Origin: Candidatus Woesearchaeota archaeon
GTDB lineage: Archaea; Nanobdellota; Nanobdellia; Woesearchaeales; GW2011-AR9
Length of the DNA stretch: 64,000 bases
Assembly (NCBI GenBank): GCA_018696595.1
Contig: JABHQW010000008.1
Span: forward strand, 38,484-102,483
Reading direction: 5' to 3'
Part shown: piece after piece, positions 39,744-55,208 of the stretch
How positions within the stretch are numbered: the first letter of the stretch is position 1
How the letters are laid out: each line of letters opens with the position of its first letter
Notes under the pieces: model-generated
Told to the model about the DNA's origin: nothing
Database searches by the model: none
What the model saw: the letters and a program-made list of their open reading frames with translations, nothing else
Position numbers and translations under genes: made by a program

Positions 39744-41393
39744 TTATTTTTTATCTCTTTTTGCTATTATGGCATTAATTCTTTTATAATCTTCAAATGT
39801 ATGAATTTCAGTCCAACCTTTATTGACTTCTAAACAATCAACTTTGTGTCCTTGCTCAATTAACTTTTGAATAGCATAAGTAAAATCTTTGTTTTTCATT
39901 TCTTCATAATTCTCAGAATAGATTTGTTTTAGTAACTCGGTACCTTGTCCCGAAAACATTGCCATGCCAATAAATTCAAAATTTGCTTCATCCGGATCTA
40001 AATGTGAACCAATTTTAACAATTTCATTATGGTCATCAAAAGTTAATGATCTTTCACCTAGATAGGGGTCTCTTTTACCAACAACAAGATCTAACTTTTT
40101 ATTATACCGATTAGCATTTAATTTATATGAAGAATCAATCACTAAAGTAATATCTCCTTCTTTCTTAATTAATCTTTCAACAATGTCCTTATCAAAAAGA
40201 AGGTCAGAATAAAGCATTAGAATTTTTCCGTTCATTTTATCTTTAGCAGTCATGATTGAATGTAACGCTTTGGTGTTTTCATATTCAGAGTTATGATACT
40301 TATTAATTGCAGGAAGATTAATTTTTTCCCCACAATAGCCAGTAACTACACTAATATCATTAATCTTAAGAGAATTAAGAATCTCAATATTTCTTTGAAT
40401 AATTGGTTTGCCATTAATATCAAGTAAACAAAGAGGGGTATCTTTTAGGTATACATCATTGAGCTTAGGATCTATTGGCTTACCAGCGGCAGGAATAATA
40501 ACTTTAATCTCTTCAAAGTCTCCTTTAACATATTTCGTTTCATGGTCCTTCATTTCAAAAGTACCTTGAAGTTCAAACAATTCTTTTACTGGAATCAATT
40601 TTTCTGAGATTGTATGAATCCCTCCTTGTTCTTTTATTTCCTTAAGTGTTTCTTTAATAGAAGTTACTGCAGATCTAATCACATGATTAGCATAAATAAC
40701 CATCTTAACTTTAGGGTGATTTTTTATTTTATCCTCAGTCAAAGTGTAATAATTTGTAGGAACAATGACGATTGGAATATCTTCTTTCCACTCTTCAATA
40801 AACCTAATAACTTCTGCAGGATCACTTTGTTTAGAATGAATCATAATTGCATCTGCCCCTGCCTCAACATAAGCTTTGGCTCTTTTTTTTGCTTCTTCAT
40901 GACCCCATCCAGCAATGAGGGCTTCAACACGAGCAATAACCATGAAATCATCATCTCGTTGAGCATTTTTAGCAGCCATAATCTTTCCAGAGAACTCAGC
41001 AATAGATGCTAATTCTTGTTTCCCTCCAACTAAAAGGCTATTCTGTTTTGGAAACTTTTTATCTTCCATAATTACTCCTGCAATTCCGGCTGCCTCAAAT
41101 TTTTGAACCATCCGAATTACGTTAATAGAATTACCATAACCTTGATCAACATCAACAACAACGGGAATCGTAACTGCATCATTCATAGAAACTGCCGCAT
41201 CTAAATAGTCTGTCATAGTGAGAATATTAGCATCTGGAACAGCATGTGACGCCGAAACTTCTAAAGAAGAAGCCCAAACTCCTTCAAAGCCTGCTTTCTC
41301 GATTAATTTCGCAGTCAAACCATTATGAGCCCCAACTAAACGAAAGAACCCAGGAAGATTAAATAATTCACGCAATTTTTTTGATTTTTCCAT
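39744..41393 (-). CDS. pepM: phosphoenolpyruvate phosphomutase (PepM) fused to a C-terminal LicC/MobA-like nucleotidyltransferase domain
   Basis: N-terminal ~290 aa: FRLVGAHNGLTAKLIEKAGFEGVWASS, DVDQGYGN and the PepM-diagnostic EDKKFPKQNS (EDKx5NS, aa 110-119, nt 41037-41066). The C-terminal half is IIPAAGKP...LLDINGKPII...VVTGY...GWTEIHTFEDY. SD AGGTGA lies 5 nt upstream. Confidence 0.85.
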   Translation of the reverse strand: MEKSKKLRELFNLPGFFRLVGAHNGLTAKLIEKAGFEGVWASSLEVSASHAVPDANILTMTDYLDAAVSMNDAVTIPVVVDVDQGYGNSINVIRMVQKFEAAGIAGVIMEDKKFPKQNSLLVGGKQELASIAEFSGKIMAAKNAQRDDDFMVIARVEALIAGWGHEEAKKRAKAYVEAGADAIMIHSKQSDPAEVIRFIEEWKEDIPIVIVPTNYYTLTEDKIKNHPKVKMVIYANHVIRSAVTSIKETLKEIKEQGGIHTISEKLIPVKELFELQGTFEMKDHETKYVKGDFEEIKVIIPAAGKPIDPKLNDVYLKDTPLCLLDINGKPIIQRNIEILNSLKINDISVVTGYCGEKINLPAINKYHNSEYENTKALHSIMTAKDKMNGKILMLYSDLLFDKDIVERLIKKEGDITLVIDSSYKLNANRYNKKLDLVVGKRDPYLGERSLTFDDHNEIVKIGSHLDPDEANFEFIGMAMFSGQGTELLKQIYSENYEEMKNKDFTYAIQKLIEQGHKVDCLEVNKGWTEIHTFEDYKRINAIIAKRDKK

Positions 41394-41564: not shown

Positions 41565-42620
41565 ATGAAAATCTTATTAGTCCATGAATTATTTATGCCC
41601 GACCAAGTTGGAGGGGGCGAAGTTTTAGTTTATGAATTAGCAAAAGGACTAATTAAGAAAGGTCACGAAGTCAAAGTCTTTACAACTGGAAAGCCAGAAA
41701 TTAAACAGTATGAGAATATCCCAACAGTTAGAATAAATATCAACAGATATTTGTTTAATTTTTCATTTCTAAAAATAAAGAAATTAGCTAAAGATTATGA
41801 TATCATTCAATCTTTTAGTTATAATGCTGCCTTCCCATCATATTTAGCTAGCAAACTTGGAAAAAAGCCAGTTATTTGTACCATCTTGGGAGTATACGGA
41901 AAAACTTGGAAGAAATTAAGAAAATTAAGTTTCTTTTGGAGAATGATGGAAAAAGTACAACTTAACAGAAAATTTAATGCCACTGTTTTCTTAAGCCCTC
42001 TCTCTCGTGAAATTGGTCATGAGATTGGGATGAAGATGGCCCCAAATTTTATAATTCCTTCAGGAGTTAATTTATCTAACACCCATCCCAATCTAAAAAA
42101 GGAGAAGTTTGTTCTTTTTGTAGGGAGGCTTTCAAAACAAAAAGGATTAGATTTACTTATTGATACAGCAGTTTTACTTCCAGAAATTAAGTTTGTTTTA
42201 GTAGGTGAAGGACCAGAAAAACAAAAGTTGCAACAAAAAGCAACGAAAAATGTTAGTTTTCTTCCTCCACAATACGGAGACAAATTGTTCAATCTATTTG
42301 GAAAAGCTCAGATTTTTTGTTTACCTTCTTACGCAGAAGGATTTCCAGTTGTTATAGTAGAAGCCATGGCCTCCGGTTGTGCCATTGTTTCAACTTTAGA
42401 TTATCCTTATCATGGCCAGTACGTACCAAATAGGTGTCCGAACGAACTAGCCACTACAATTGAGAAATTGTATAATAATGAAAAATTATTACAGAAATAT
42501 TCCAATAGCAATATTAAAGATTCTCGAGATTATACTTGGAATAACTTCGTTAATAAAACGGAACAAGTTTATCATTGGGTTCTAAATCAGAAAACATCAG
42601 AAAAAGAGATTGAAGATTAA
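41565..42620 (+). CDS. GT4 (group 1) glycosyltransferase
   Basis: MKILLVHELFMPDQVGGGEV and EX7E YAEGFPVVIVEAMASGCAIVST. Confidence 0.8.
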   Translation: MKILLVHELFMPDQVGGGEVLVYELAKGLIKKGHEVKVFTTGKPEIKQYENIPTVRININRYLFNFSFLKIKKLAKDYDIIQSFSYNAAFPSYLASKLGKKPVICTILGVYGKTWKKLRKLSFFWRMMEKVQLNRKFNATVFLSPLSREIGHEIGMKMAPNFIIPSGVNLSNTHPNLKKEKFVLFVGRLSKQKGLDLLIDTAVLLPEIKFVLVGEGPEKQKLQQKATKNVSFLPPQYGDKLFNLFGKAQIFCLPSYAEGFPVVIVEAMASGCAIVSTLDYPYHGQYVPNRCPNELATTIEKLYNNEKLLQKYSNSNIKDSRDYTWNNFVNKTEQVYHWVLNQKTSEKEIED

Positions 42621-42703
42621 TGCACAAGAATTATAAATGAATTATAACCATTAACTACCTATTAATTTAAAAAAATTAACGAGAATGGATTAATTAATTG
42701 AAA

Positions 42704-43907: not shown

Positions 43908-44969
43908 TTAATTATCTTCCCAATCCTTTTTTGGAATTCTCCAGTCTTTTCCATAAACAAATTCGAGATGTTTTTCAGGATTAAAAGGGGCATGATACTC
44001 TTTCCCATAAAAATCTATTTTTCCTAATTGACTATAATGTTCTCTTAAAAACTTCCACTCAATGATTCTACAATCTTTTAGTGAAACTTTTTCCCATAAT
44101 AATTGAATTAATTTCCCTTTATAAGGAATAAAAGTAAATATAAATATCACTACATTAAAAAAACCTTTTAAAAACCAAGAAGGGATTCTTGAATCTTGTA
44201 GCTCTCCACCATGCCTTCTTATTAAAGTAATAAATGTATTTATTATCATCCTTCGCTTTTTTATGCCATCTCTAGCTGCCAACAACAACCAACCCAATAA
44301 CGCAGTAATTTTTGTTTTTTTCTTTAAACTTTTTGTTTGAAAAAAAACTAAATAGTCCTTTTTTTTCCTAAGAATATGAATATTAATATGTAATGAACCT
44401 TTCTTTCTAAATGTAATCATTCCACGATCAGCAAACCAACATACTTCAAACCCCTGATCTGATAGCTTATTAAGAGCATCTAGTAATGTATTTATATTAA
44501 TTTCTTCCCTCACCATACTAGTATCAATATCACAATCCCAAGATAATATTTTCTTATCCCTAACTGCTCCAAGAAGGGTACCACAATCTAATCTCCAAAT
44601 TAAGTTATGTTCTTCAAATACCTCTTTTATTTCTTCTAACGCTTTCACTGTTCCTTTTTCATGTGGGTTTTTTTCTTTTGAAGAAATTGTGGGCGTGTTC
44701 TTTCTAGAAATAACTTTTTCATTTAACTCCATTTGTATTTTTTGATTAATACTTTTATCTTTTATATTTCCAATTTTAGTTAAGTGTTTCCTAAAAGGAC
44801 CGAGATTTGTCCTAAATATTCTACAATTTAACCAAAGGTATCCTTTCTCTTTTGTAATAGTATACACATTTTCTCTGAAAGGGTCTAATGGTGGTGTAAA
44901 CCGAGTTGTTTTTACTATATCGCCAACTTTAAAAATTGTTTTTGTCATTTTCTTTATTATTCTCCACAT
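43908..44969 (-). CDS. LicD-family phosphotransferase with ~100-aa N-terminal extension
   Basis: LicD core LDCGTLLGAVRDKKILSWDCDIDTSM (DxD). A TATA-like ATTATAATTA lies 22-31 nt upstream. Confidence 0.7.
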   Translation of the reverse strand: MWRIIKKMTKTIFKVGDIVKTTRFTPPLDPFRENVYTITKEKGYLWLNCRIFRTNLGPFRKHLTKIGNIKDKSINQKIQMELNEKVISRKNTPTISSKEKNPHEKGTVKALEEIKEVFEEHNLIWRLDCGTLLGAVRDKKILSWDCDIDTSMVREEININTLLDALNKLSDQGFEVCWFADRGMITFRKKGSLHINIHILRKKKDYLVFFQTKSLKKKTKITALLGWLLLAARDGIKKRRMIINTFITLIRRHGGELQDSRIPSWFLKGFFNVVIFIFTFIPYKGKLIQLLWEKVSLKDCRIIEWKFLREHYSQLGKIDFYGKEYHAPFNPEKHLEFVYGKDWRIPKKDWEDN

Positions 44970-45019: not shown

Positions 45020-46549
45020 TTATGTTTGTTTTATCCCCACAAAACCTATTCTTTCACCATACATCGCTTTTGCCCGAATTGGATCTCTTTTAAGTAACAA
45101 ATGATTAAGATCAAAGTTTTGTTTTTCTACCCAACATTCAAACTCTCCTGCACTTTTAAAACCGTCAACAGTTATATGGGAGTTTCTGAAAGTACCACTT
45201 TTTTTTACTTCTCCATCCCACCATAAATTTTCTTTTGTAACTTGTCGATAAAGCTCTGTTCCAGGAAGGGGATTCACAATGGCAACAGAATAACTATCTG
45301 CCCCACAACTAGCAGCAAACTTAATTGTTTCTTCCCTTTCTTCTCTTGTTTCGCCTGGAAAACCAACCATCCAAAAAGTATGAGTATACAACCCGGCATC
45401 AATAGCAGTTCTAATTGTTTGAGGAATAAGTTCTAAATCCAACCTTTTATTGGCCTGATCTAAAGTTTTTTGCACACCACTTTCACATGCTAAAGTGACT
45501 TGATAGCAACCCGAATCTGCCATTTTTTCAAATAATTCCTGATGCTTACCCTGGTGATAATCTACTCTGATTCCATTCGGCGGGCACCAAGGAATATTCA
45601 AGGGTTTCATTAGATCACATAATTCATTTAATTTTGAAAGGTCAGATGTTAGAGTATCGTCTTCAAACTGAACTTCTTGAATACCATGATTTTCAATAGC
45701 GTCTTTTATTTCTGCAACAATTTCTTGAGGGCTTCTCCACCTAACTTTTCTTCCCCAAGTAACGGGAGTAGTACAATAAGTACAACGTTCCGGACATCCC
45801 CTAGAAGCCATAACATTCAATACCCTTTTTCTTTCAGTATCTGCATTATGAAATAAACCAACATTAAAGTACCCTTCCATATTCATAAGATGCCTAGCGG
45901 GAGAAGGTAAATCTTGGAGATTAAGTGTTTCTCCAGATAAAGGATTAATTACTATTTTACCTGCTTCGGATGAAGAATTTTCTCTATGAACTAAACCGGG
46001 AATCAAACTATAATCACCACCAGTTAATAAACAATCAATTAAATGTGCAAATCTCAGTTCACTTTCTCCAACCATTGCAAAATCAATATTTTGATTATCC
46101 ATGAAAGCCAATTCTTTTTCTAGATTTGATTCTTGGTTTCTAGGATCATTGGCATAAAGATAATCTGACACACTATTAGTGATATAGTTTCCACCTACAA
46201 TAACTGGGAGATCTCTTTTAACCTCTTTTGTAATCCGAGCTAAGGCATGAGAGCCTTGAACAAGATTAGAAAAGAGTACAGAAATCCCAACAATGTCTGG
46301 ATTAATTTCTGAGATATATTTAGCAATATCAGTATCTGATTCTCCCACAATAACTATTCCCTTCTCCCCGGAGGATTCAGAATGGTGATAGCCTTCTAAT
46401 GCAGTATCACGAACATAAACGTCGTGGCCTTCTTTTTCAAGAACTGCCGCCAAATAACCCAAACCCAAAGGAGGTTGTATTCGGTTAACCCCTCCTTCAA
46501 TGCCCCTGATATTTGGAGAGAATAACAAAATCCTACTTTTATTTACCAT
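45020..46549 (-). CDS. cobalamin(B12)-binding radical SAM enzyme (class B methylase-like)
   Basis: N-terminal B12-binding Rossmann-like domain (ILLFSPN...PLGLGYLAAVLEKEGHDVYVRD...DIVGISV). Radical SAM cluster motif ASRGCPERCTYC (CxxxCxxC). Confidence 0.85.
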   Translation of the reverse strand: MVNKSRILLFSPNIRGIEGGVNRIQPPLGLGYLAAVLEKEGHDVYVRDTALEGYHHSESSGEKGIVIVGESDTDIAKYISEINPDIVGISVLFSNLVQGSHALARITKEVKRDLPVIVGGNYITNSVSDYLYANDPRNQESNLEKELAFMDNQNIDFAMVGESELRFAHLIDCLLTGGDYSLIPGLVHRENSSSEAGKIVINPLSGETLNLQDLPSPARHLMNMEGYFNVGLFHNADTERKRVLNVMASRGCPERCTYCTTPVTWGRKVRWRSPQEIVAEIKDAIENHGIQEVQFEDDTLTSDLSKLNELCDLMKPLNIPWCPPNGIRVDYHQGKHQELFEKMADSGCYQVTLACESGVQKTLDQANKRLDLELIPQTIRTAIDAGLYTHTFWMVGFPGETREEREETIKFAASCGADSYSVAIVNPLPGTELYRQVTKENLWWDGEVKKSGTFRNSHITVDGFKSAGEFECWVEKQNFDLNHLLLKRDPIRAKAMYGERIGFVGIKQT

Positions 46550-46714
46550 AAGTAATCTTCCTCTAAATCAATATCTAATAATTGTATTTTTTCGCATCAA
46601 GGGTCTTTTATAAAAGTTATGAATATGTAATGCAGTCAAAATCCTTTTATAAAGAACCCTAATGAATTAAATGTGGCCAAATCCACATTAGAATTATAAA
46701 AATGAATCGAAGAA

Positions 46715-46730
46715 CCATAGAATATATAAA
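46715..46730 (+). promoter_or_regulatory. promoter core CCATAGAATATATAAA
   Basis: Ends 25 nt before ATG 46755. Identical to 41527-41542. Confidence 0.55.
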
Positions 46731-46754
46731 TACTTTAATTTATTTAGTTGTTAA

Positions 46755-49700
46755 ATGTCATTAGCAAAACAGAGGGAATATTTTGGAATTGGAAAAATAG
46801 ATAAGTTAAAAGAAATATTAGCATTAGAACGAGCAAAAAAAGTATTTTTAGTAACCACAAAAAGATCATTCTCATCTTCTAGTGCTAAAGAAAGAATTGC
46901 CCCCCAATTAAAAGATTACCAGGTCACTATTTTTAACGAATTCTCCCAAAACCCAAAACTAGAAGATATTAAAAGAGGAATAAAGATATTTAAAGAAAGT
47001 AATTCCGATTTAATTATTGCTATTGGTGGAGGGAGTGTAATTGATATGGCAAAATCAATTAATGTCTTATCTGCCCAAACTTTAGCACCTGAAATATACA
47101 TCATTGAAAAAGTTCCGTTTGAAAAGAAAGGTTGCCCATTAGTTGCAATACCAACCACATCAGGAACAGGAAGTGAAGCGACACATTTCGCGGTTTTGTA
47201 TATTAACAAATCCAAATATTCGTTAGCTCACGAAGAATATATTCTTCCAAATTATGCCATTATCGATCCCGAATTGACATTTAGTTTACCTAAAGCCATT
47301 ACTGCTACAACTGGTATTGATGTTTTAAGCCAAAGCATAGAATCATATTGGTCGGTAAACTCAACTGAAGAAGCAAAGGCTTACGCCCAAGAAGCAATAA
47401 AGTTAGTTTTAAAAGATCTAAAAACTGCGGTTAATTACCCTTGCAAAGAAGCCAGAGTAGCAATGGCCAAAGCGGCCAATTTATCTGGAAAAGCAATTAA
47501 CATTGCAAAATCCACGGCCCCACACGCGATATCATACCCTTTTACTTCATACTTTAATATTCCTCACGGCCATGCAACAGGATTAACCCTTGGCCCAATA
47601 CTAGTTTTTAATGCCAATATTAATGAAACTAATTGTACAGACCCAAGAGGGGCAGAATATGTTAGATTAACTATTAATAAAATAATTTCTTTTTTTGGGT
47701 CTACTTGTGCCGCTGATACTTGTAAAAAAATTCAATATTTAATGCGAGATATTGGACTTGAAACAAACATTAAAAGATTAGGGATTGATTCTGAAGAAAA
47801 AGTAAATTTAATAATTGAAAAAGGGTTCAACCCCGATCGAATTAAAAATAACCCCAAAAGAATAGAGCCAGAACAGTTAAGAAAAATTTTAAATGAAATT
47901 AGCCAAGAAACAGAAATTAAACCAGAAAAAATGGAAACAGTTTATATTGGCATGGTTGCTGATAGCATCCACCACGGCCACATAAATATTATCAGTGAAG
48001 CAAGAAAATTGGGAGATGTAATTGTGGGATTAGTTACTGATGATGCGGCCCAAAGCTATAAAAGAAGACCAATCTTAAGCTTTAGTGATAGAGCAAGAAT
48101 TATTAAAAATATCAAAGGAGTAACAAAAATTGTTCCCCAAAACACATTGGATTATGTCCCAAATATAGAGAAATATAAACCATCAATAATCATGCATGGG
48201 GATGATTGGAAAAAAGGATCCCAAAGAATTATTAGAGAAAGAGCATTAAATGCAGTTGAAAAGTATGGGGGGAGAATTATAGACCTCCCTTATACTAAAG
48301 GCATTTCAACTACAGAATTTATAGAAAAAGTTAAATCTTGTTCATTAAATAAAAAAAACACAACCCAAGCAATAATTCTGGCAGCAGGGATGGGTACAAG
48401 ATTAAGACCACTTACTGAAGAGACACCAAAATGTTTAATTAAAGTGAACAATAAAACACTATTAGAATATTCACTTGATTGTCTTAAAGAAAATGGAATC
48501 CAAGAGGTAATTATTGTTATTGGTTATCGCGGAGAATTAATTAAACAAAAAATAGGTAATGATTATCACGGCTTAAAAGTAGCATACATTGAAAATTTAC
48601 GTTTTTCCGAGACTGGAAGTATGTATTCTTTGTCACTTGCTAAAAAAGAGATTAAAAATGACATCCTGGTTTTAGAATCTGATCTGTTATATGAATCGTC
48701 TGCTATTAATACAATATTAAATTCAAATCATAGAAATACTATGGTCATCTCTAAATTACTTCATTCTGGAGATGATGTTTACATTTGTACAAATGAAAAA
48801 GAAGAAATTATTAATCTTGGGAAAGAAATATCAGAAGAAGAGAAAAAAAGAGCTAAAGGAGCAATGATCGGAATTTCAAAATATTCTGGTGAATTTCTTG
48901 CAGAACTTTTTAAGAAAGCAGAAGAAGATTATGAAAAGGGGGAAGTCAATTACCATTATGAAGAGTGTGTATTTGCCACCAGTCATGAGAATAACCCGGT
49001 TAAAGCTATCTTTTGTCCTGAACTTCATTGGATTGAAATTGACAATGAAAATGATTTAAAGAAAGCAACAGAAGTAACATACCCCAAGATCAGAAATTTA
49101 GAGAATAATAAGCAAAAAAGTTCAAGTATAAAAAGAAATATCCTTTTAAATCCTGGACCAGCTACTACTACTGACACCGTAAAATATGCACAAATTGTTC
49201 CCGACATTTGTCCAAGAGAAAAAGAATTTGGGGATGTAATGAAATACATTAATAATAATTTAATTGAAATTGCTGGGGGAAATACGGAGGAAGATGTCTG
49301 CGTATTATTTGGTGGCTCTGGAACGGCGGCCATGGATGCTACAATTAATTCTGTTGTACCACCTGATAAAAAAATCTTAGTGATTAATAATGGAGCATAT
49401 GGGGAAAGAATTGCTAAGATTGCTCGAGCGTATAGTCTTGGTTGTATTGAACTAAAGTTTGAATGGGATGCTCTACCAGATCTAAAAATAATTGAGGACC
49501 AACTAAACGAAAACCCTGAAATTTCTTGCGTTGCTATGATTCATCATGAAACAACAACGGGACTATTAAATCAGGTTAAAGAAATTGGAGAATTAGTTAA
49601 AAATCACAATAAAGTGTTCATAGTTGACACAATATCTAGTTTCGCAGGGATCCCAATGAATATTAAAGAATTTAATATTGATTTTATGATGTCTACTTCA

Positions 49701-50249
49701 AACAAGTGTATTCAAGGAATGGCAGGGGTTAGTTTTGTTATTTGTAGTAAGAAACAACTTGAAAGAATTAAAGAATACCCACGCCGATCTTTTTATTTAA
49801 GCTTATATGACCAATACGAATATTTCATTAAAAATTACCAGATGAGGTTTACCCCCCCAGTACAAACATTATATGCTCTTAAAAAAGCAATTGCAGAATT
49901 TTTAGAGGAAGGATATGAAAACCGAGTTGCAAGATATACTCAGAGTTGGAAAGTTCTAAGAGCAGGAGTTCAAGAATTAGGATTTAAGATATTAACTCAA
50001 CCTGAAAATGAGTCCAACCTTTTAATTACTTTACTTAATCCAGAACACCCTAATTTTAATTTTAATATTCTTCATGACAAATTATTTGAAAAAGGATTTA
50101 CTATTTATCCTGGAAAAGTGGGAAAAGTTAATTCATTTCGGTTATCTAATATGGGTGCCATTGATGAAAAGGATATTAGCGAATTCTTAGTAACATTTGA
50201 AGGTGTATTAAATGAAATGGGAACAATTGGACAGCAAAAACCAACATAA
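46755..50249 (+). CDS. four-domain fusion: Fe-dependent alcohol dehydrogenase (phosphonoacetaldehyde reductase-like) + HxGH cytidylyltransferase + LicC/PntC-like nucleotidyltransferase + 2-aminoethylphosphonate:pyruvate aminotransferase (PhnW-like)
   Basis: One uninterrupted 1164-aa ORF. aa 1-~385: Fe-ADH (GGGSVIDMAKS, PTTSGTGSE, HAISYP...PHGHATG). aa ~393-525 (from nt 47931): VYIGMVADSIHHGHINII (HxGH). aa ~539-780 (from nt 48369): AIILAAGMGTRLRPLTEETPKCLIKV. aa ~793-1164 (from nt 49131): RNILLNPGPATTTDTV...MSTSNKCIQGMAG (class V aminotransferase with PLP Lys). Confidence 0.85.
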   Translation: MSLAKQREYFGIGKIDKLKEILALERAKKVFLVTTKRSFSSSSAKERIAPQLKDYQVTIFNEFSQNPKLEDIKRGIKIFKESNSDLIIAIGGGSVIDMAKSINVLSAQTLAPEIYIIEKVPFEKKGCPLVAIPTTSGTGSEATHFAVLYINKSKYSLAHEEYILPNYAIIDPELTFSLPKAITATTGIDVLSQSIESYWSVNSTEEAKAYAQEAIKLVLKDLKTAVNYPCKEARVAMAKAANLSGKAINIAKSTAPHAISYPFTSYFNIPHGHATGLTLGPILVFNANINETNCTDPRGAEYVRLTINKIISFFGSTCAADTCKKIQYLMRDIGLETNIKRLGIDSEEKVNLIIEKGFNPDRIKNNPKRIEPEQLRKILNEISQETEIKPEKMETVYIGMVADSIHHGHINIISEARKLGDVIVGLVTDDAAQSYKRRPILSFSDRARIIKNIKGVTKIVPQNTLDYVPNIEKYKPSIIMHGDDWKKGSQRIIRERALNAVEKYGGRIIDLPYTKGISTTEFIEKVKSCSLNKKNTTQAIILAAGMGTRLRPLTEETPKCLIKVNNKTLLEYSLDCLKENGIQEVIIVIGYRGELIKQKIGNDYHGLKVAYIENLRFSETGSMYSLSLAKKEIKNDILVLESDLLYESSAINTILNSNHRNTMVISKLLHSGDDVYICTNEKEEIINLGKEISEEEKKRAKGAMIGISKYSGEFLAELFKKAEEDYEKGEVNYHYEECVFATSHENNPVKAIFCPELHWIEIDNENDLKKATEVTYPKIRNLENNKQKSSSIKRNILLNPGPATTTDTVKYAQIVPDICPREKEFGDVMKYINNNLIEIAGGNTEEDVCVLFGGSGTAAMDATINSVVPPDKKILVINNGAYGERIAKIARAYSLGCIELKFEWDALPDLKIIEDQLNENPEISCVAMIHHETTTGLLNQVKEIGELVKNHNKVFIVDTISSFAGIPMNIKEFNIDFMMSTSNKCIQGMAGVSFVICSKKQLERIKEYPRRSFYLSLYDQYEYFIKNYQMRFTPPVQTLYALKKAIAEFLEEGYENRVARYTQSWKVLRAGVQELGFKILTQPENESNLLITLLNPEHPNFNFNILHDKLFEKGFTIYPGKVGKVNSFRLSNMGAIDEKDISEFLVTFEGVLNEMGTIGQQKPT

Positions 50250-50273: not shown

Positions 50274-51020
50274 ATGATTACTAGAAATCAACAGAAAGAA
50301 AAATATGAAACTGATTTAAGATACCATTCAGATTCGGACAACTTAAATCAAACGTTTGATAACCGCTATTCATTACGTAATAATTGGGGATTATATTTTG
50401 AATTAATAAAATTTAAAGAGATGGTTAAGCTCTTAAATAAAAGTAAAGTTAGGTTAAAGAATAAAAAAATCTTAGATTTAGGTTGTCACCGTGGCTTTAC
50501 TTCTAACCTTTTAGCACAATTAAAAGGATCTTCTGAAAACATTTATGGGGCAGATTTTATCAATTCTTTTGTTGAGCAAGCCCAAGAAATTAATCCTGGT
50601 GTTAAATTCTTTCAACATGATGTTTATAATGAGCTACCTTTTGAGAACTCTTATTTTGATTTAGTTACATTAATTTACTTGTTTAATGCCCTTCCCTCCC
50701 AAGACCAACAAGAAGTTGTTAAGAATATTTCCAAAAAAATAAAAGTAGGAGGTCATATCTTATTCTTTGACTTGTTTGAATCCAGAATGTCACGAGTAAC
50801 ACAAAGATTAGCTCACCTTAACAAGAGATATACTCCTTTGCCACATTTTAATGATAAAATTATTAAAAAATTGTTCCCGGACTTTAAGATAATCCAATCT
50901 AAAAAAATAATTAATTTGTTAACTTATCGAACAATTGGGTTTTCGTATGGTTTAGCAGAATTTTTAGATAAAATGTTACCATGCGAGTATTATATCACAT
51001 TATTAAGAAAAATAAAATAA
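50274..51020 (+). CDS. class I SAM-dependent methyltransferase
   Basis: Motif I ILDLGCHRGFTS and post-I GADF. Confidence 0.65.
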   Translation: MITRNQQKEKYETDLRYHSDSDNLNQTFDNRYSLRNNWGLYFELIKFKEMVKLLNKSKVRLKNKKILDLGCHRGFTSNLLAQLKGSSENIYGADFINSFVEQAQEINPGVKFFQHDVYNELPFENSYFDLVTLIYLFNALPSQDQQEVVKNISKKIKVGGHILFFDLFESRMSRVTQRLAHLNKRYTPLPHFNDKIIKKLFPDFKIIQSKKIINLLTYRTIGFSYGLAEFLDKMLPCEYYITLLRKIK

Positions 51021-51021
51021 A

Positions 51022-51672
51022 ATGGGCGAAAAAAGAATAAAAGAAAATGTGGAATTTTGGGATTGGGTATTCAGATTTGTATCTAAACCAGTCACACACT
51101 TTTTTGTTAAGTTCACTAAGATAACCCCTAACCAAATCACCATATTAAGTTTTATTTTAGGCTTATTAGCCGCGGGACTAATTTTAATGGGAGATTATAA
51201 TTACTTAGTTGTTGCAGGCGTCTTAGTATTAATTTTCATGGTCTTAGATAATGTTGACGGGGAGATTGCTAGAATAACTAAGAAAACAAGTAAGTTAGGC
51301 CATTGGTTAGATGGAGTTGTGGGTTTTATTATAAATGAAGCATTAATTTTAGCCATGGCATTAAGTATTGGTAGCCCATTATCTCTATCCGTTGGATTAT
51401 TAACAATGATTGCTTTTCCAATGCAATATTTATTAATATTCTTTTACAAAGCAGAGATTGTTAAAGAGAATGCCCCAATTACAATTGGATCTGGAAGCCT
51501 AATCAATAAAATAAAGTATTTATATGGTTCAACCTTCTTTCAATTTACAGTTGCGATAGGTTGCTTTTTCAATAAGCTACTATGGGTTTTAATCTTCTTT
51601 GCAGTCATCGGAAACTTATTCTGGATGGGGACATTGTTTGTCCAATATATCAACTTAAAACGAAAGTTTTAA
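51022..51672 (+). CDS. CDP-alcohol phosphotransferase family membrane protein (variant motif)
   Basis: DNVDGEIARITKKTSKLGHWLDGVVG = DxxDGxxARx8GxxxDxxxG. 5-6 TM helices. Starts 2 nt after the upstream stop. Confidence 0.7.
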   Translation: MGEKRIKENVEFWDWVFRFVSKPVTHFFVKFTKITPNQITILSFILGLLAAGLILMGDYNYLVVAGVLVLIFMVLDNVDGEIARITKKTSKLGHWLDGVVGFIINEALILAMALSIGSPLSLSVGLLTMIAFPMQYLLIFFYKAEIVKENAPITIGSGSLINKIKYLYGSTFFQFTVAIGCFFNKLLWVLIFFAVIGNLFWMGTLFVQYINLKRKF

Positions 51673-51697: not shown

Positions 51698-52687
51698 ATG
51701 GTAAACAATTTGTTGAGTCATTATAAAGTCTCCCCAAAATTAGAAGTGAAATTAACAGCAAGTTTTCCTTTATCTCGGAGTACAGGAATTCAACAAGCTT
51801 ATAATTCTCAAGAACCAGATTGGGACTTATTATTTACGCATTGGGGTAAAGAGATTATATATATTAATCCTAATATCCCCCAATTACAGTGGAGAGAGAT
51901 ATGCTTAGCAACCCATTGGAATCAATTTGAAGAAGCAGTTAAAAAAAATGATAAATTAGTACTAGATGGGAGAAAAATCGATGGTTTTTCAATTCAAGCT
52001 CAACGTAAAGGGGCTTTAAAAGATTTAAGTTTTTTATCTACTGCAAATTATTGTTTTACTCTTACCGATGATGACCAACATATTTTAATGGGAGTTAGGG
52101 GAGGAAGTGATAATGTAGGACAAGCAGTAACAATGCCATTGGGGGTTGTTTCTTATCCTTCAGAACCTGACCCTAATAATTTAGATCCAATTACGGCTTC
52201 AGTTTACTCCGAAGCAAATGAAGAAGGGGGCATTTTACCAAATGAATATTCTTCATTAAATTGTATTGGAACCTTGCGACAAGAGCAATGTTCTACACCA
52301 GTAAATAATCTTATTTGGATTGGAAGATTAAAGATTACAGGTGAAGAAATTATAGAGAGACACAAAGTAGCCATTGAATTATATAATAAATTTGGAAATG
52401 ATTCTGAGAACATATTAAAGGCACGAATGGAGTTGAGAAAAAGATTTTTATTTAATCCAAGATTTCCAAAAGATGCTTGGGAAAATTCAAGATTAAATTT
52501 ATTTTCTAATGATCCCGAGAAAATGGTTGCAGATCTCAGTTATTTAATTGACCAAGGAAAAGAAATTAAACATGGATTATATGGTGCTTTAGCCTTATAT
52601 ATTTTAAACCAACATGGAGATAAATATTATAGTCAATTAATGAATATACCACAATTTAAAGAAAAGATTCATGATCAAAAATTATAG
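51698..52687 (+). CDS. hypothetical protein, weak Nudix-box-like segment
   Basis: 329-aa ORF. SEANEEGGI (nt 52208-52234) partly matches the Nudix core REx2EExGU, but the upstream Gx5E spacing does not fit. Confidence 0.4.
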   Translation: MVNNLLSHYKVSPKLEVKLTASFPLSRSTGIQQAYNSQEPDWDLLFTHWGKEIIYINPNIPQLQWREICLATHWNQFEEAVKKNDKLVLDGRKIDGFSIQAQRKGALKDLSFLSTANYCFTLTDDDQHILMGVRGGSDNVGQAVTMPLGVVSYPSEPDPNNLDPITASVYSEANEEGGILPNEYSSLNCIGTLRQEQCSTPVNNLIWIGRLKITGEEIIERHKVAIELYNKFGNDSENILKARMELRKRFLFNPRFPKDAWENSRLNLFSNDPEKMVADLSYLIDQGKEIKHGLYGALALYILNQHGDKYYSQLMNIPQFKEKIHDQKL

Positions 52688-52774: not shown

Positions 52775-53479
52775 ATGAAAGCATTAATTACTGCGGCCGG
52801 AATGGGTACGAGACTGGGTAATATTACTAAAGACACAAACAAGTGTATCTTAAATGTCGGAAACAAACCATTACTTCTCCATTCAGTCGAGATTCTCAAG
52901 AATGTAGGAATTGATGACATATATGTAATTATTGGCCATCACGGAGAGAAAATTAAACAACTTCTTGGAGATAAAGTTAATTATATCTATAATCCTGATT
53001 ATGCCACTACTAGTATTCTAGGTTCTATTGTTCTTGCTAAAGAACATTTATTCCAGTCAGAATTTGTTTTTCTAACCGGAGATTCTTTGCTCCATCCCGA
53101 ACTCATCAAGGGCTTATTAGAACCAAGTCAAGATGTTCTTGTTTCTATTGAGCTTAAAAAATGTAATGAAGAAGATATGAAAGTTGTTTTAGAGAACCAT
53201 AATATTAAAGAAATAAGTAAAACAATATCTTTGGATCAGGCCCAGGGAGAATATACTAGCCTTACTAGATTCCCAAAAGAGTCTTCCACTGTTTTTTTTA
53301 ATGAAGTTGAAAAAGCAATAAACAATCAGAATTGTAAAACTTATGTTGCTGACATCCTTTTAAATTTACAAAATTTAGGGTTTAATCTTAAACCAATATA
53401 TACCAATAAACCAAGAATTGAAATTGATTTCTTAGAAGACTTAGAAAAAGCCCAAGCATTGTACAAACAATATTTTTGA
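52775..53479 (+). CDS. LicC/PntC-like (MobA-like) nucleotidyltransferase
   Basis: MKALITAAGMGTRLGNITKDTNKCIL...VIIGHHGEKIKQ. TATA ATTTATATAA lies 23 nt upstream. Confidence 0.75.
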   Translation: MKALITAAGMGTRLGNITKDTNKCILNVGNKPLLLHSVEILKNVGIDDIYVIIGHHGEKIKQLLGDKVNYIYNPDYATTSILGSIVLAKEHLFQSEFVFLTGDSLLHPELIKGLLEPSQDVLVSIELKKCNEEDMKVVLENHNIKEISKTISLDQAQGEYTSLTRFPKESSTVFFNEVEKAINNQNCKTYVADILLNLQNLGFNLKPIYTNKPRIEIDFLEDLEKAQALYKQYF

Positions 53480-54446: not shown

Positions 54447-55208
54447 ATGAAAACCAAATATCCATTTAAAACAATAACAAAAACTGAAGAGCAACTTCAT
54501 TCTTGGACTTATGTATTTCTACTTAAGTATCCAACAATCTTATTAACCTGGCTATTTGCAAATTTTACTAACTTCTCTCCAAACTTAGTTTCTTTCCTAG
54601 GGCTGATTCCTTCTTTTATTAGTGCTTATTTTTATGTTAATGGGAACTTACTATTTGGTGCTCTTTTTTATCTCTTGGCTTGGCTTCTTGATGGAGTTGA
54701 TGGAAGATTAGCAAGAGTCAAAAGCCTAGGGTCAAAGTACGGGGCATTTTATGACAATTATGTTGGCCAAATTGGTTTTATTATAATGATCATGGGATTT
54801 TTTTATGGTATAGCTAGAATAAAACAAAATTCTTTATGGTTGTTGTTGGGCATTCTAGTTTACTTTCTGGTTACTTTCCGCAGCTTGATTGCTTTAAAAG
54901 TTAAAACCTTGATGGGAAATGAATATCGTGTCAACTTAGATGAAGTAAATGTTGAAGAAGCAAGTATTAAAGAAACAAAAGGATTATGGGGATTAGCTGT
55001 AAGATTACAAAATAAACTGAACCAAAAAGGTTTAGTTGAACCATTTAACCTAATTGATATGATTGTATTGATTTTTATTATTGGCCCAATTGCGGAATTA
55101 ATTTTATCTGGTTCTCTAATATATGTGATAATATTTGCATTGATTATGATTATAATAAAAGAAATCATCTGGTTTCTCTATTATAGAAAGATTTTAAAAG
55201 ATAGGTGA
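54447..55208 (+). CDS. CDP-alcohol phosphotransferase family membrane protein (variant motif, paralog of 51022-51672)
   Basis: DGVDGRLARVKSLGSKYGAFYDNYVG = DxxDGxxARx8GxxxDxxxG. Polytopic. Confidence 0.7.
   Translation: MKTKYPFKTITKTEEQLHSWTYVFLLKYPTILLTWLFANFTNFSPNLVSFLGLIPSFISAYFYVNGNLLFGALFYLLAWLLDGVDGRLARVKSLGSKYGAFYDNYVGQIGFIIMIMGFFYGIARIKQNSLWLLLGILVYFLVTFRSLIALKVKTLMGNEYRVNLDEVNVEEASIKETKGLWGLAVRLQNKLNQKGLVEPFNLIDMIVLIFIIGPIAELILSGSLIYVIIFALIMIIIKEIIWFLYYRKILKDR

What the first reader, a model, noticed from the sequence alone, without database searches (positions are those of the whole stretch)
45020..46549. B12-binding radical SAM enzyme inside the phosphonate module: candidate Fom3-like methylase of a cytidylylated phosphonate
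Seen: an N-terminal cobalamin-binding-type domain plus a CPERCTYC radical SAM motif. The gene is transcribed divergently from the ADH/CT/NT/PhnW fusion and lies next to the LicD gene.

Established: in Streptomyces fosfomycin biosynthesis HEP is first cytidylylated, and the class B radical SAM Fom3 then C-methylates cytidylyl-HEP.

The local combination PepM + Ppd + Fe-ADH + cytidylyltransferase + B12-rSAM reproduces the early fosfomycin logic. No HppE-type epoxidase or FomD-type hydrolase is evident.

Inference: a methylated phosphonate (e.g. 2-hydroxypropylphosphonate or a methylated AEP) may be the head group transferred.
Basis: inference. Interest (0 to 1): 0.65.

Follow-up and report, generated by a model that had tools for sequence, protein, structure and literature searches.

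The report
Fom3-related B12 radical SAM phosphonate enzyme
This intact gene in a marine DPANN archaeon encodes a vitamin-B12-type radical SAM enzyme, a distant full-length relative of the fosfomycin methylase Fom3, from an uncharacterised family that sits in phosphonate-making gene clusters of many marine microbes and probably adds a methyl group to a nucleotide-activated phosphonate before it is attached to the cell surface.

Summary
Window 45020-46549 (-) is an intact 509-aa ORF with a B12-binding domain, a radical SAM domain and the motif CPERCTYC. It is divergent from the FeADH/CT/NT/PhnW fusion and lies 50 bp upstream of LicD.

I recovered authentic Fom3 (UniProt Q56184). The target aligns to it over nearly its full length: 32% identity, E 1e-73, and profile-profile probability 100%. 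It is equally close to an Sden_1168-family protein (31%). It is an orthologue of neither. It falls below every NCBIfam cut-off and belongs to its own clade ("T1"), which has >1500 members.

T1 occurs in SAR11 single-cell genomes, DPANN archaea, Omnitrophota, Nitrospinota, Planctomycetia and two viral contigs. In 25 of 38 non-redundant T1 loci, PepM or Ppd lies within 10 kb. The immediate neighbours are Fe-ADH or an AEP-type aminotransferase, cytidylyltransferases, an APS-kinase-like gene and a PhnY*-like hydroxylase. Several loci carry the full Fom1-like/Fom2/FomC set with T1 in Fom3's place.

No HppE or FomD is present, so this is surface tailoring, not fosfomycin synthesis.

Most likely function: cobalamin-dependent C-methylation of CMP-HEP (or CMP-AEP). 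This is unproven biochemically, and the substrate and the methylated atom are inferred. It is a new family-level variant of a known kind.

The parts
45020..46549 (-). Class B (B12-binding) radical SAM enzyme of 509 aa. It is a member of the uncharacterised 'T1' family, which is related to Fom3 and SD_1168.
   Evidence: Pfam B12-binding plus Radical_SAM domains. CPERCTYC at residues 252-259. 32% identity to Fom3 Q56184, E 1e-73. AlphaFold model pLDDT 89.5. Foldseek best matches are AprD4, TsrM, MgmA, OxsB, CysS and TokK.
43908..44969 (-). LicD-family phosphotransferase. It lies 50 bp downstream of the rSAM gene on the same strand and is probably co-transcribed. It is the candidate transferase of the CMP-activated head group onto a glycan.
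   Evidence: Pfam LicD PF04991, 39.6 bits. NCBIfam cholinephosphotransferase Mf1 model, 61 bits, below cut-off.
46550..46754 (.). AT-rich 205-bp divergent spacer between the rSAM/LicD unit and the fusion gene. It holds all three copies of CTTTTATAAA in the window; these are TATA-like, and one copy is palindromic.
   Evidence: A promoter function is inferred only.
46755..50249 (+). Four-domain fusion of 1164 aa. The domains are Fe-ADH (PnAA to HEP, FomC-like role), CTP_transf_like PF01467 (the Fom1 CyTase type), an NTP_transferase (LicC/PntC type), and PhnW/AepZ AEP transaminase.
   Evidence: Pfam. TIGR03301 PhnW-AepZ 430 bits, above the 360.8 cut-off. PF01467 is the Fom1 CyTase family according to PMC6697681.
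42698..43825 (+). Phosphonopyruvate decarboxylase (Ppd, Fom2 equivalent).
   Evidence: TIGR03297, 507 bits, above the 312.5 cut-off.
41565..42620 (+). GT4 glycosyltransferase lying inside the phosphonate module.
   Evidence: Pfam Glycos_transf_1 and Glyco_transf_4.
39744..41393 (-). PEP mutase with a C-terminal MobA-like nucleotidyltransferase (PntC-type fusion).
   Evidence: PF13714, 192 bits. TIGR02320, 319.8 bits, at the cut-off. Motif EDKKFPKQNS at residue 110. NTP_transf_3 domain at residues 322-411.
50274..51020 (+). Class I SAM-dependent methyltransferase. It may N- or O-methylate the head group.
   Evidence: Pfam Methyltransf_25/31/11.
51022..51672 (+). CDP-alcohol phosphatidyltransferase family protein. 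It is the candidate transferase of the CMP-linked phosphonate to a lipid or polyol alcohol.
   Evidence: PF01066, 42.6 bits. Similar to archaetidylinositol-phosphate synthase, below cut-off.
51698..52687 (+). 329-aa protein with no family match. A 37% identical homologue lies near the T1 gene in a Nanoarchaeia MAG (L023).
52775..53479 (+). Stand-alone nucleotidyltransferase of 234 aa.
   Evidence: NCBIfam sugar-1-P nucleotidylyltransferase-like hits, all below cut-off.
54447..55208 (+). Second CDP-alcohol phosphatidyltransferase family protein.
   Evidence: PF01066, 48 bits. NCBIfam.

Best explanation
The gene encodes a cobalamin-dependent (class B) radical SAM methyltransferase. It belongs to a distinct, uncharacterised family (here called T1) that shares a common ancestor and full-length architecture with Fom3 and SD_1168.

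Proposed pathway in this marine DPANN archaeon:
1. PepM and Ppd make phosphonoacetaldehyde.
2. The Fe-ADH and PhnW domains of the neighbouring fusion protein convert it to 2-hydroxyethylphosphonate (HEP) and 2-aminoethylphosphonate (AEP).
3. The fused cytidylyltransferase domains load these onto CMP.
4. By the Fom3 mechanism, the enzyme reductively cleaves SAM at its [4Fe-4S] cluster. The resulting 5'-deoxyadenosyl radical abstracts an H atom from the two-carbon phosphonate moiety of the CMP conjugate. The substrate radical then takes a methyl group from methylcobalamin, which is re-methylated by a second SAM.
5. The product is a CMP-linked C3 phosphonate: CMP-2-hydroxypropylphosphonate, or the amino analogue.
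6. LicD and the CDP-alcohol phosphotransferases move the methylated head group onto glycans or lipids of the cell envelope. It is not converted into fosfomycin.

Shown here: domain architecture, homology to Fom3, gene linkage and the family's distribution. Inferred: cobalamin use, methyl transfer, the identity of the substrate and the atom methylated.
For: Architecture and motifs.

Homology to Fom3:
- Authentic Fom3 (Q56184) was identified.
- BLASTP gives 32% identity over residues 6-482, 231 bits, E 1e-73.
- The T1 profile against a Fom3-family profile gives probability 100%, E 2.5e-99, 459 aligned columns and 34% identity.
- The best NCBIfam hit is the Sden_1168 phosphonate-cluster family (259 bits), followed by HpnJ (137 bits). 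A review places HpnJ in the same SSN sub-cluster as Fom3 (PMC9204698).

Genomic context:
- PepM or Ppd lies within 10 kb in 25 of 38 non-redundant T1 loci. A cytidylyl- or nucleotidyltransferase is present in 27 of 38.
- The immediate neighbours (1-2.7 kb centre to centre) are Fe-ADH, Ppd, an AEP-type aminotransferase, an APS-kinase-like gene, a PhnY*-like hydroxylase and a CDP-alcohol transferase.
- Locus L076 reads CTP_transf_like-PepM / Ppd / Fe-ADH / APS-kinase-like / T1. This is the Fom1/Fom2/FomC/Fom3 set with T1 in Fom3's place.
- Bona fide Fom3-family loci (L050-L056) have the same partner set.
- In viral contig L078 the T1 gene lies tail-to-tail with a LicD + cytidylyltransferase fusion; in L079 a CTP_transf_like match lies at the same position. 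This ties T1 to the activate-and-transfer step.

Literature: Fom3 methylates CMP-HEP and Fom1's CyTase makes CMP-HEP (PMC8158854, PMC6697681).
Against: - The gene is not a Fom3 orthologue. It is about 32% identical, the clades are separate, and the deep branching between T1, Fom3 and SD_1168 is unresolved in an NJ tree.
- It is below every curated family cut-off.
- 13 of 38 T1 loci and both viral loci show no pepM within 10 kb, so the substrate need not be a phosphonate in all members.
- T1 proteins up to 71% identical sit beside either an Fe-ADH or an aminotransferase, so CMP-HEP specifically is not established.
- The best structural match is AprD4, a non-methylating enzyme that uses no cobalamin, although sequence alignment to AprD4 covers only the rSAM half.
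- A search for residues shared by T1 and Fom3 but absent from related clades found only six positions.
- There are no expression data: the RNA runs held none of the gene's words.
- I found no report of a C3 phosphonate on a glycan.
Confidence: 0.55

Rival explanations
1. The enzyme works on the nucleotide-activated head group but is not phosphonate-specific. It would methylate the alcohol moiety of a CMP/CDP-activated small molecule in general, for example CDP-ethanolamine, CDP-choline or CDP-glycerol-type phosphoesters as well as CMP-phosphonates.
For: The most constant partner is a cytidylyl- or nucleotidyltransferase (27 of 38 loci), not PepM. PepM-less loci keep an NTP transferase, LicD or a CDP-alcohol transferase (L025, L028, L029, L047). 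Viral contig L078 pairs T1 with a LicD + CTP_transf_like fusion and L079 with a CTP_transf_like match, with no PepM or Ppd in +/-10 kb. PF01467 also contains glycerol-3-P and phospho-alcohol cytidylyltransferases.
Against: Two thirds of loci do carry PepM or Ppd within a few kb. Single-cell genomes and MAGs are incomplete, and pepM may lie elsewhere. Other neighbours are phosphonate-type: a PhnY*-like hydroxylase, a TmpA-like dioxygenase and PhnW-like transaminases.
Confidence: 0.15
2. The enzyme is a phosphonate/phosphinate methylase with different regiochemistry. It would perform P-methylation of a P-H phosphinate, as SD_1168 and PhpK do in vitro, or methylation at C1 rather than C2.
For: The top curated HMM hit is the 'Sden_1168 family P-methyltransferase' model (259 bits), and PhpK also hits at 106 bits. 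The target is 31% identical to an Sden_1168-family protein, the same as to Fom3. SD_1168's physiological substrate is unknown, and either C- or P-methylation is considered possible (PMC9204698).
Against: None of the genes that generate phosphinates are seen in the window or in T1 loci: no HEPD/PhpD-type dioxygenase and no carboxyphosphonoenolpyruvate mutase. Scores are far below both family cut-offs (575 and 600 bits).
Confidence: 0.12
3. The enzyme is a sugar or glycan C-methylase (GenK/MoeK5-like) of the surrounding glycosylation island. It would be only co-located with the phosphonate genes.
For: The window is a large glycosylation island with AglB, many GTs, a flippase and sugar-nucleotide enzymes. 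Many T1 loci hold additional B12-rSAM and SPASM rSAM genes and nonulosonic-acid genes.
Against: Across phyla the glycan genes vary, while the immediate neighbours of T1 are the phosphonate enzymes (distances). The additional rSAMs belong to other families at 17-35% identity by tblastn.
Confidence: 0.1
4. The enzyme is a non-methylating radical enzyme whose B12-like domain may be vestigial. It could be an AprD4-type dehydratase, an HpnJ/OxsB-type rearrangement enzyme or a BchE-type cyclase, acting on the phosphonate or its carrier.
For: AprD4 is the best PDB match by sequence (E 5.9e-23) and by fold (E 4.7e-24, TM 0.65-0.73). HpnJ and BchE models also hit. The family occurs in SAR11 and DPANN lineages; from my own knowledge, not tested here, these are not known to make B12.
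Against: The N-terminal domain passes the Pfam B12-binding cut-off and keeps family-invariant D..G / SxL / GG motif elements. AprD4 similarity by sequence is confined to the rSAM half, residues 183-470. Cobalamin-using methylases TsrM, MgmA, CysS and TokK match almost as well by fold.
Confidence: 0.08

Closest known systems
Fom3, cytidylyl-2-hydroxyethylphosphonate methyltransferase of Streptomyces wedmorensis/fradiae (UniProt Q56184; EC 2.1.1.308)
   Same: The two share full-length collinear homology (32% identity, E 1e-73; profile-profile probability 100%). Both have an N-terminal B12-binding domain, a CxxxCxxC radical SAM core and a C-terminal domain. Both are encoded beside PepM, Ppd, Fe-ADH and a PF01467 cytidylyltransferase.
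   Different: The target lies in a separate clade: the Fom3 clade has 97% bootstrap without it, and true Fom3 relatives are 56-69% identical to each other. T1 has an insertion of about 15 residues after the GGNH motif and lacks Fom3's 'MPPMFG' insertion. There is no Fom4/HppE or FomD; instead the neighbours are LicD, CDP-alcohol transferases and GTs, meaning surface tailoring rather than an antibiotic pathway. In many T1 loci an aminotransferase replaces the Fe-ADH.
SD_1168 / NCBIfam NF038361 'Sden_1168 family B12-binding radical SAM P-methyltransferase'
   Same: This is the best curated HMM hit (259.5 bits, residues 5-441). The target is 31% identical to a PGAP-named family member, P0365. Related clade members L049 and L054 are also pepM-linked.
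   Different: The score is far below the 575-bit cut-off. SD_1168's only demonstrated activity is in vitro P-methylation of a phosphinothricin precursor, and its physiological substrate is unknown (PMC9204698).
PntC/LicD-type phosphonate tailoring pathway (Rice et al. 2019, PMC6697681)
   Same: The cluster has PepM fused to a MobA-like nucleotidyltransferase, an AEP transaminase, LicD and glycosyltransferases. This is the logic of CMP activation followed by transfer to the cell surface.
   Different: That pathway, as described, has no radical SAM step. The only published mention I found of a radical SAM beside ppm-ppd is as an unclassified neighbourhood: Campylobacter GCF 385, with an adenylylsulfate kinase (PMC8942020).
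AprD4 (PDB 6FD2), radical SAM 1,2-diol dehydratase
   Same: It is the best solved-structure match by sequence and by fold.
   Different: It is 22% identical, and sequence alignment covers only the radical SAM half. AprD4 acts on an aminoglycoside and is not a methylase.

Membership tests
Class B (cobalamin-binding) radical SAM enzymes | CxxxCxxC [4Fe-4S]/SAM motif in a Radical_SAM (PF04055) domain | tested here: met
   C252-P-E-R-C256-T-Y-C259. PF04055 scores 73.6 bits against a 29.5 cut-off. The cysteines are invariant in 30 homologues.
Class B (cobalamin-binding) radical SAM enzymes | N-terminal Rossmann-type B12-binding domain (PF02310) | tested here: met
   PF02310 scores 49 bits against a 32.1 cut-off at residues 24-131. 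The motif elements D48xxxxG53, S90xL92 and G119G120 are conserved and the His is absent; from my own knowledge, His-off binding is usual in class B enzymes. The predicted fold matches TsrM, MgmA, OxsB, CysS and TokK.
Class B (cobalamin-binding) radical SAM enzymes | Actual binding and use of cobalamin | not testable with these tools
   This needs purified protein. AprD4, the best structural match, does not use cobalamin, so this feature is not guaranteed.
Fom3 family (cytidylyl-2-HEP methyltransferase) | Clusters with Fom3 in sequence space (orthology) | tested here: not met
   The target is 32% identical to Q56184, whereas the Fom3 family is 56-96% identical internally. The Fom3 clade has 97% bootstrap support and excludes T1.
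Fom3 family (cytidylyl-2-HEP methyltransferase) | Encoded with PepM, Ppd, an Fe-ADH (FomC) and a PF01467 cytidylyltransferase (Fom1 CyTase) | tested here: met
   All four functions lie within 7 kb in the window. The same holds in many T1 loci such as L076, L009, L010, L016, L020, L021, L027 and L030.
Fom3 family (cytidylyl-2-HEP methyltransferase) | Downstream fosfomycin enzymes FomD (DUF402 hydrolase) and Fom4/HppE (cupin epoxidase) | tested here: not met
   No DUF402 or cupin domain was found in any scanned ORF of the window.
Fom3 family (cytidylyl-2-HEP methyltransferase) | Methylates C2 of CMP-HEP with methylcobalamin | not testable with these tools
   This needs a biochemical assay.
NF038361 Sden_1168 family | HMM score at or above the curated cut-off (575 bits) | tested here: not met
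   The target scores 259.5 bits. Other T1 members score 240-247 bits and Fom3-family members about 297 bits.
TIGR04479 PhpK/BcpD P-methyltransferases | HMM score at or above the cut-off (600 bits), plus a phosphinate-forming pathway in the neighbourhood | tested here: not met
   The target scores 105.6 bits. No HEPD/PhpD or CPEP mutase genes are seen.
Phosphonate tailoring (Pnt) cluster, for the module as a whole | True Ppm (EDKxxxxxNS), with Ppd, a nucleotidyltransferase and a LicD-type or CDP-alcohol transferase | tested here: met
   EDKKFPKQNS at residue 110 of PepM, with a fused NTP_transf_3 domain. Ppd matches TIGR03297 at 507 bits. LicD and two PF01066 proteins are present. The criteria are taken from PMC6697681.

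The most novel reading that the evidence does not exclude
T1 would be a widespread, cobalamin-dependent 'phosphonate head-group methylase' of the ocean. SAR11, DPANN archaea, Nitrospinota and even viruses would use it to turn CMP-HEP or CMP-AEP into C3 phosphonates (2-hydroxypropyl- or 2-aminopropylphosphonate) that are then displayed on glycans, glycoproteins or lipids.

Three consequences would follow:
- A previously unrecognised class of marine phosphonates would be added.
- A biosynthetic source would exist for the propylene that C-P lyase organisms reportedly release from marine high-molecular-weight DOM.
- A vitamin B12 requirement would be created in lineages generally regarded as lacking B12-dependent enzymes or B12 synthesis (again my recollection).
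Probability: 0.3. Interest if true: 0.8.

Novelty: new variant of a known kind. Interest (0 to 1): 0.62.

Why it matters
Fom3 is so far the only C-methylase known to act on a phosphonate, and it is known only from an antibiotic pathway. This gene shows that a sister-level family occupies the same position in the far more common cell-surface phosphonate clusters, including those of SAR11.

One study estimates that SAR11 could supply most of the surface-ocean phosphonate budget (PMC8931226). Neither marine survey that I read discusses this enzyme.

If it methylates the CMP-activated head group, three things follow:
- Marine and host-associated microbes would carry C3 phosphonates that current surveys based on pepM, ppd, phpC and mpnS miss.
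- Phosphonate production would be tied to B12 availability.
- C-P lyase degradation products would include C3 hydrocarbons.

The family also gives enzymologists soluble-protein candidates from many phyla for studying Fom3-type chemistry.

Tried and rejected
- Getting a Fom3 sequence from papers failed. The supplement of PMC8158854 showed only sequences of other genes in the parts I read. PMC6103835, PMC6554712 and PMC4362910 are not held. PMC12183590 and PMC8992657 have no Fom3 sequence.
- tblastn against plasmids gave only distant B12-rSAMs.
- The 150 nearest 50%-cluster representatives carried no informative names.
- Fom3 was finally reached by searching with the Bradyrhizobium relative from L053 and listing cluster members.
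- I first guessed the window was thaumarchaeal, from its low GC, TFB and CofD. I rejected this because its TFB and AMP phosphorylase fall in 90% clusters with Nanoarchaeota/Woesearchaeota MAG proteins.
- A specificity-position analysis (residues conserved in T1 and Fom3 but not in other clades) yielded only six columns. I treat it as uninformative.
- There is no RNA evidence: metatranscriptome runs of the same study hold none of the gene's words.
- There are no Rfam families or tRNAs in the window, and therefore no B12 riboswitch.
- Literature searches for propylene from marine phosphonates and for C3 phosphonates on polysaccharides found nothing relevant in the held library.
- The deep branching order of T1, Fom3 and SD_1168 could not be resolved with NJ, and no ML tool was available.
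Full report
**Observation.** The ORF at 45020-46549 (minus strand) is intact: 509 aa with an ATG start. Pfam finds a B12-binding domain at residues 24-131 (49 bits, cut-off 32.1). It also finds a Radical_SAM domain at 249-412 (73.6 bits, cut-off 29.5). The cluster motif CPERCTYC lies at residues 252-259.

In an alignment of 30 homologues the three cysteines are invariant. So are the aspartate, serine and glycine residues of the classical cobalamin-binding motif, D48xxxxG53, S90xL92 and G119G120, although the His is absent (that alignment's numbering is one lower because I cut the first Met).

| Coordinates | Strand | Gene |
|---|---|---|
| 43908-44969 | - | LicD, 50 bp downstream of the rSAM gene |
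| 46755-50249 | + | 1164-aa Fe-ADH / CTP_transf_like / NTP_transferase / PhnW fusion, divergent across a 205-bp spacer |
| 42698-43825 | + | Ppd (TIGR03297, 507 bits) |
| 39744-41393 | - | PepM with motif EDKKFPKQNS and a fused MobA-like nucleotidyltransferase |

Further along lie a SAM methyltransferase, two CDP-alcohol phosphatidyltransferases and another nucleotidyltransferase. No cupin/HppE or DUF402/FomD protein occurs in any scanned ORF.

**Host and setting.** The window encodes TFB, a RadB/Rad51-like protein, CofD, an AMP-phosphorylase-like protein and an AglB(STT3)-PPIase fusion. It also carries many glycosyltransferases and a flippase. It is therefore an archaeal glycosylation island.

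Its TFB and AMP phosphorylase fall in 90%-identity clusters with proteins named 'Nanoarchaeota archaeon' or 'Candidatus Woesearchaeota archaeon'. The same DNA is present in marine and seawater metagenomes. The host is therefore a marine DPANN archaeon. My first guess of Thaumarchaeota was wrong.

**Sequence relationships.**
- The best curated family is NF038361, the Sden_1168 B12-rSAM from a phosphonate cluster, at 259.5 bits against a 575 cut-off.
- Next come HpnJ (137 bits), ApyD (126 bits) and PhpK (106 bits). All are below their cut-offs.
- The best solved structure is AprD4, but that alignment covers only the radical SAM half.
- An AlphaFold model (pLDDT 89.5) matches AprD4, TsrM, MgmA, OxsB, CysS and TokK. 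This is the class B architecture.

To test the Fom3 idea directly I needed Fom3's sequence. Papers did not yield it. A search seeded with a Bradyrhizobium relative (L053) followed by a cluster listing did. P0406 is UniProt Q56184, 'Cytidylyl-2-hydroxyethylphosphonate methyltransferase' of S. wedmorensis, and P0405 is the S. fradiae protein.

- Target against Fom3: 32% identity over residues 6-482, 231 bits, E 1e-73.
- Target against an Sden_1168-family protein: 31% identity, 231 bits.
- T1 profile against a Fom3-family profile: probability 100%, E 2.5e-99, 459 aligned columns.

I built an NJ tree of 91 sequences with 100 bootstraps. The target's family (T1) is a clade with 86% support, rising to 100% with two outliers. 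The Fom3 family is a separate clade with 97% support. The Sden_1168 group is a third lineage. The order in which the three branch is unresolved. The gene is therefore a homologue of Fom3 at the level of a sister family, not an orthologue.

**Family and distribution.** More than 1500 database proteins match. The closest complete ones are only 46-56% identical. At 50% clustering the family collapses to one large cluster plus a few others.

A scan of species-representative genomes found T1 members (45-55% identity) in many lineages:
- numerous Pelagibacteraceae single-cell genomes
- Nanoarchaeota and Woesearchaeota
- Omnitrophota, Planctomycetia, Nitrospinota and Magnetococcales
- Methanosarcinales, Saccharibacteria and Parcubacteria
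- Gammaproteobacteria and a Rhodobacteraceae SAG

Two IMG/VR viral contigs also carry it.

**Context.** I searched each locus with the window's pathway proteins. Results for the 38 non-redundant T1 loci with at least 10 kb of flank:

| Feature within 10 kb | Loci (of 38) |
|---|---|
| PepM or Ppd | 25 |
| Cytidylyl- or nucleotidyltransferase | 27 |
| Fe-ADH | 12 |
| Aminotransferase | 12 |

The genes directly beside T1 (about 1-2.7 kb centre to centre) are all of these kinds:
- Fe-ADH and Ppd
- a divergent PhnW-like aminotransferase
- an APS-kinase-like gene
- a PhyH protein whose best model is the PhnY* methylphosphonate hydroxylase
- a CDP-alcohol transferase

Locus L076 reads CTP_transf_like-PepM / Ppd / Fe-ADH / APS-kinase-like / T1. 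That is the Fom1/Fom2/FomC/Fom3 set, and the true Fom3-family loci L050-L056 have the same partners.

PepM-less loci still carry a nucleotidyltransferase plus a TauD- or PhyH-type dioxygenase, LicD or a CDP-alcohol transferase. In viral contig L078 T1 lies tail-to-tail with a LicD + cytidylyltransferase fusion, and L079 has a CTP_transf_like match at the same position. The constant theme is an activated (cytidylylated) head group, usually a phosphonate.

**Mechanism proposed.** The proposal rests on homology to Fom3, whose reaction on CMP-HEP is established (PMC8158854; Fom1 CyTase in PMC6697681).
1. The enzyme cleaves SAM reductively.
2. It abstracts an H atom from the C2 unit of a CMP-linked phosphonate.
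3. It transfers a methyl group from methylcobalamin, giving a CMP-C3-phosphonate.
4. LicD and the CDP-alcohol transferases then place the head group on glycan or lipid.

Domain architecture, homology and gene linkage are shown. Cobalamin use, methyl transfer, the substrate and the regiochemistry are inferred. I put this at about 0.55.

The main uncertainty is the substrate. T1 proteins up to 71% identical sit with either an Fe-ADH or an aminotransferase, and the window encodes both. A third of loci show no pepM nearby.

**Rivals.**
- A head-group methylase that is not phosphonate-specific (0.15).
- P- or C1-methylation, as for SD_1168 and PhpK (0.12).
- A glycan C-methylase that is only co-located (0.10).
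- A non-methylating AprD4/HpnJ-type radical enzyme (0.08).

**What is known.** The Pnt pathway paper has no radical SAM step. Li and Horsman list 'radical SAM and adenylsulfate kinase' beside ppm-ppd in Campylobacter as an unclassified neighbourhood. Two reviews of B12-rSAM enzymes name only Fom3, PhpK and SD_1168 for phosphorus compounds, and they say SD_1168's physiological role is unknown. Two marine phosphonate surveys do not discuss this enzyme, although one attributes most potential phosphonate production to SAR11. I found no report of a C3 phosphonate on a glycan.

T1 therefore appears undescribed. I class it as a new family-level variant of a known kind of enzyme, placed in a new biological context: surface tailoring in marine oligotrophs, DPANN archaea and viruses.

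**Limits.**
- The tree is NJ only.
- Context detection used tblastn with my own queries, so divergent PepM or transferases could have been missed.
- SAGs and MAGs are incomplete.
- There are no expression data.
- Cobalamin supply in this archaeon cannot be judged from 64 kb, and no B12 riboswitch was found.
- The link to propylene from marine DOM, and the view that SAR11 and DPANN lack B12 enzymes, rest on my memory and were not verified here.

Noticed in passing
L078:10004-12479 and L079:9998-12446 (IMG/VR UViG_3300032330_001422 and UViG_3300033069_001718): Two predicted viral contigs (59.5 and 125.5 kb) carry a T1-family B12-rSAM, 47-49% identical to the target. In L078 it lies tail-to-tail with a LicD + CTP_transf_like fusion protein, among glycosyltransferases, a phage-lysozyme-domain protein and a DUF5661/intein protein; in L079 a CTP_transf_like match occupies the same position. 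No PepM or Ppd lies within 10 kb.
   Followed up: partly
L029:8351-13769 (Pelagibacteraceae SAG AG-410-L19): In a pepM-less SAR11 locus the T1 gene is flanked by a TauD-family dioxygenase (weakly like the TMAEP dioxygenase TmpA) and a nucleotidyltransferase. A TonB-dependent receptor also flanks it; its best NCBIfam model is the vitamin B12 receptor (136 bits, far below the cut-off). This may be linked B12 uptake.
   Followed up: partly
window 46755-50249 (+): A single 1164-aa polypeptide fuses Fe-ADH, a Fom1-type cytidylyltransferase, a LicC/PntC-type nucleotidyltransferase and the AEP transaminase PhnW. It therefore carries both the HEP and AEP branches together with their activation steps. 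I have not seen this four-domain arrangement described.
   Followed up: partly
L004:9453-9980 and equivalents in L017, L019, L031, L036, L038, L039, L076: An APS-kinase-like gene sits immediately upstream of T1 in many SAR11 and other loci. By analogy with Campylobacter Cj1415 (my recollection), it may 3'-phosphorylate the CMP-phosphonate to give a PAPS-like donor. The window lacks this gene.
   Followed up: no
L004:11528-12292 and many SAR11 and gammaproteobacterial loci: A PhyH-family dioxygenase lies directly downstream of T1. Its best match is the PhnY* 'methylphosphonate hydroxylase' model NF052437 (154 bits, below cut-off). This suggests C1 hydroxylation of the same head group.
   Followed up: partly
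window 46550-46754: All three occurrences of CTTTTATAAA in the 64-kb window fall in the 205-bp divergent spacer between the rSAM gene and the fusion gene. One copy is palindromic (46605-46616). These are TATA-box-like elements of a possible bidirectional archaeal promoter.
   Followed up: partly
window 32155-35532 (+): An oligosaccharyltransferase AglB/STT3 is fused at its C-terminus to a parvulin-type PPIase domain (1125 aa).
   Followed up: no
window 4717-8973 (+): A 1418-aa archaeal protein has as its only Pfam hit the Nup98-96 autopeptidase S59 domain (30.9 bits, cut-off 28.4) at residues 882-996.
   Followed up: no
L050, L052, L053, L055, L056 (Neorhizobium, Roseibium, Bradyrhizobium, Vitreimonas, Telmatospirillum): True Fom3-family proteins occur in Alphaproteobacteria beside Fom1-like CT-PepM and a PhyH dioxygenase, and in most of these loci also Ppd and Fe-ADH. 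The L053 protein is 57% identical to the representative of Streptomyces Fom3's 90% cluster. The Fom3 family is therefore not confined to fosfomycin producers.
   Followed up: partly
L001 (Planctomycetia MAG), L004-L006, L076 and the JGI contig of P0040: Many T1 loci contain two to four additional B12-binding or SPASM radical SAM genes, together with nonulosonic-acid (NeuB, CTP_transf_3) genes. These are radical-SAM-rich glycan islands.
   Followed up: no
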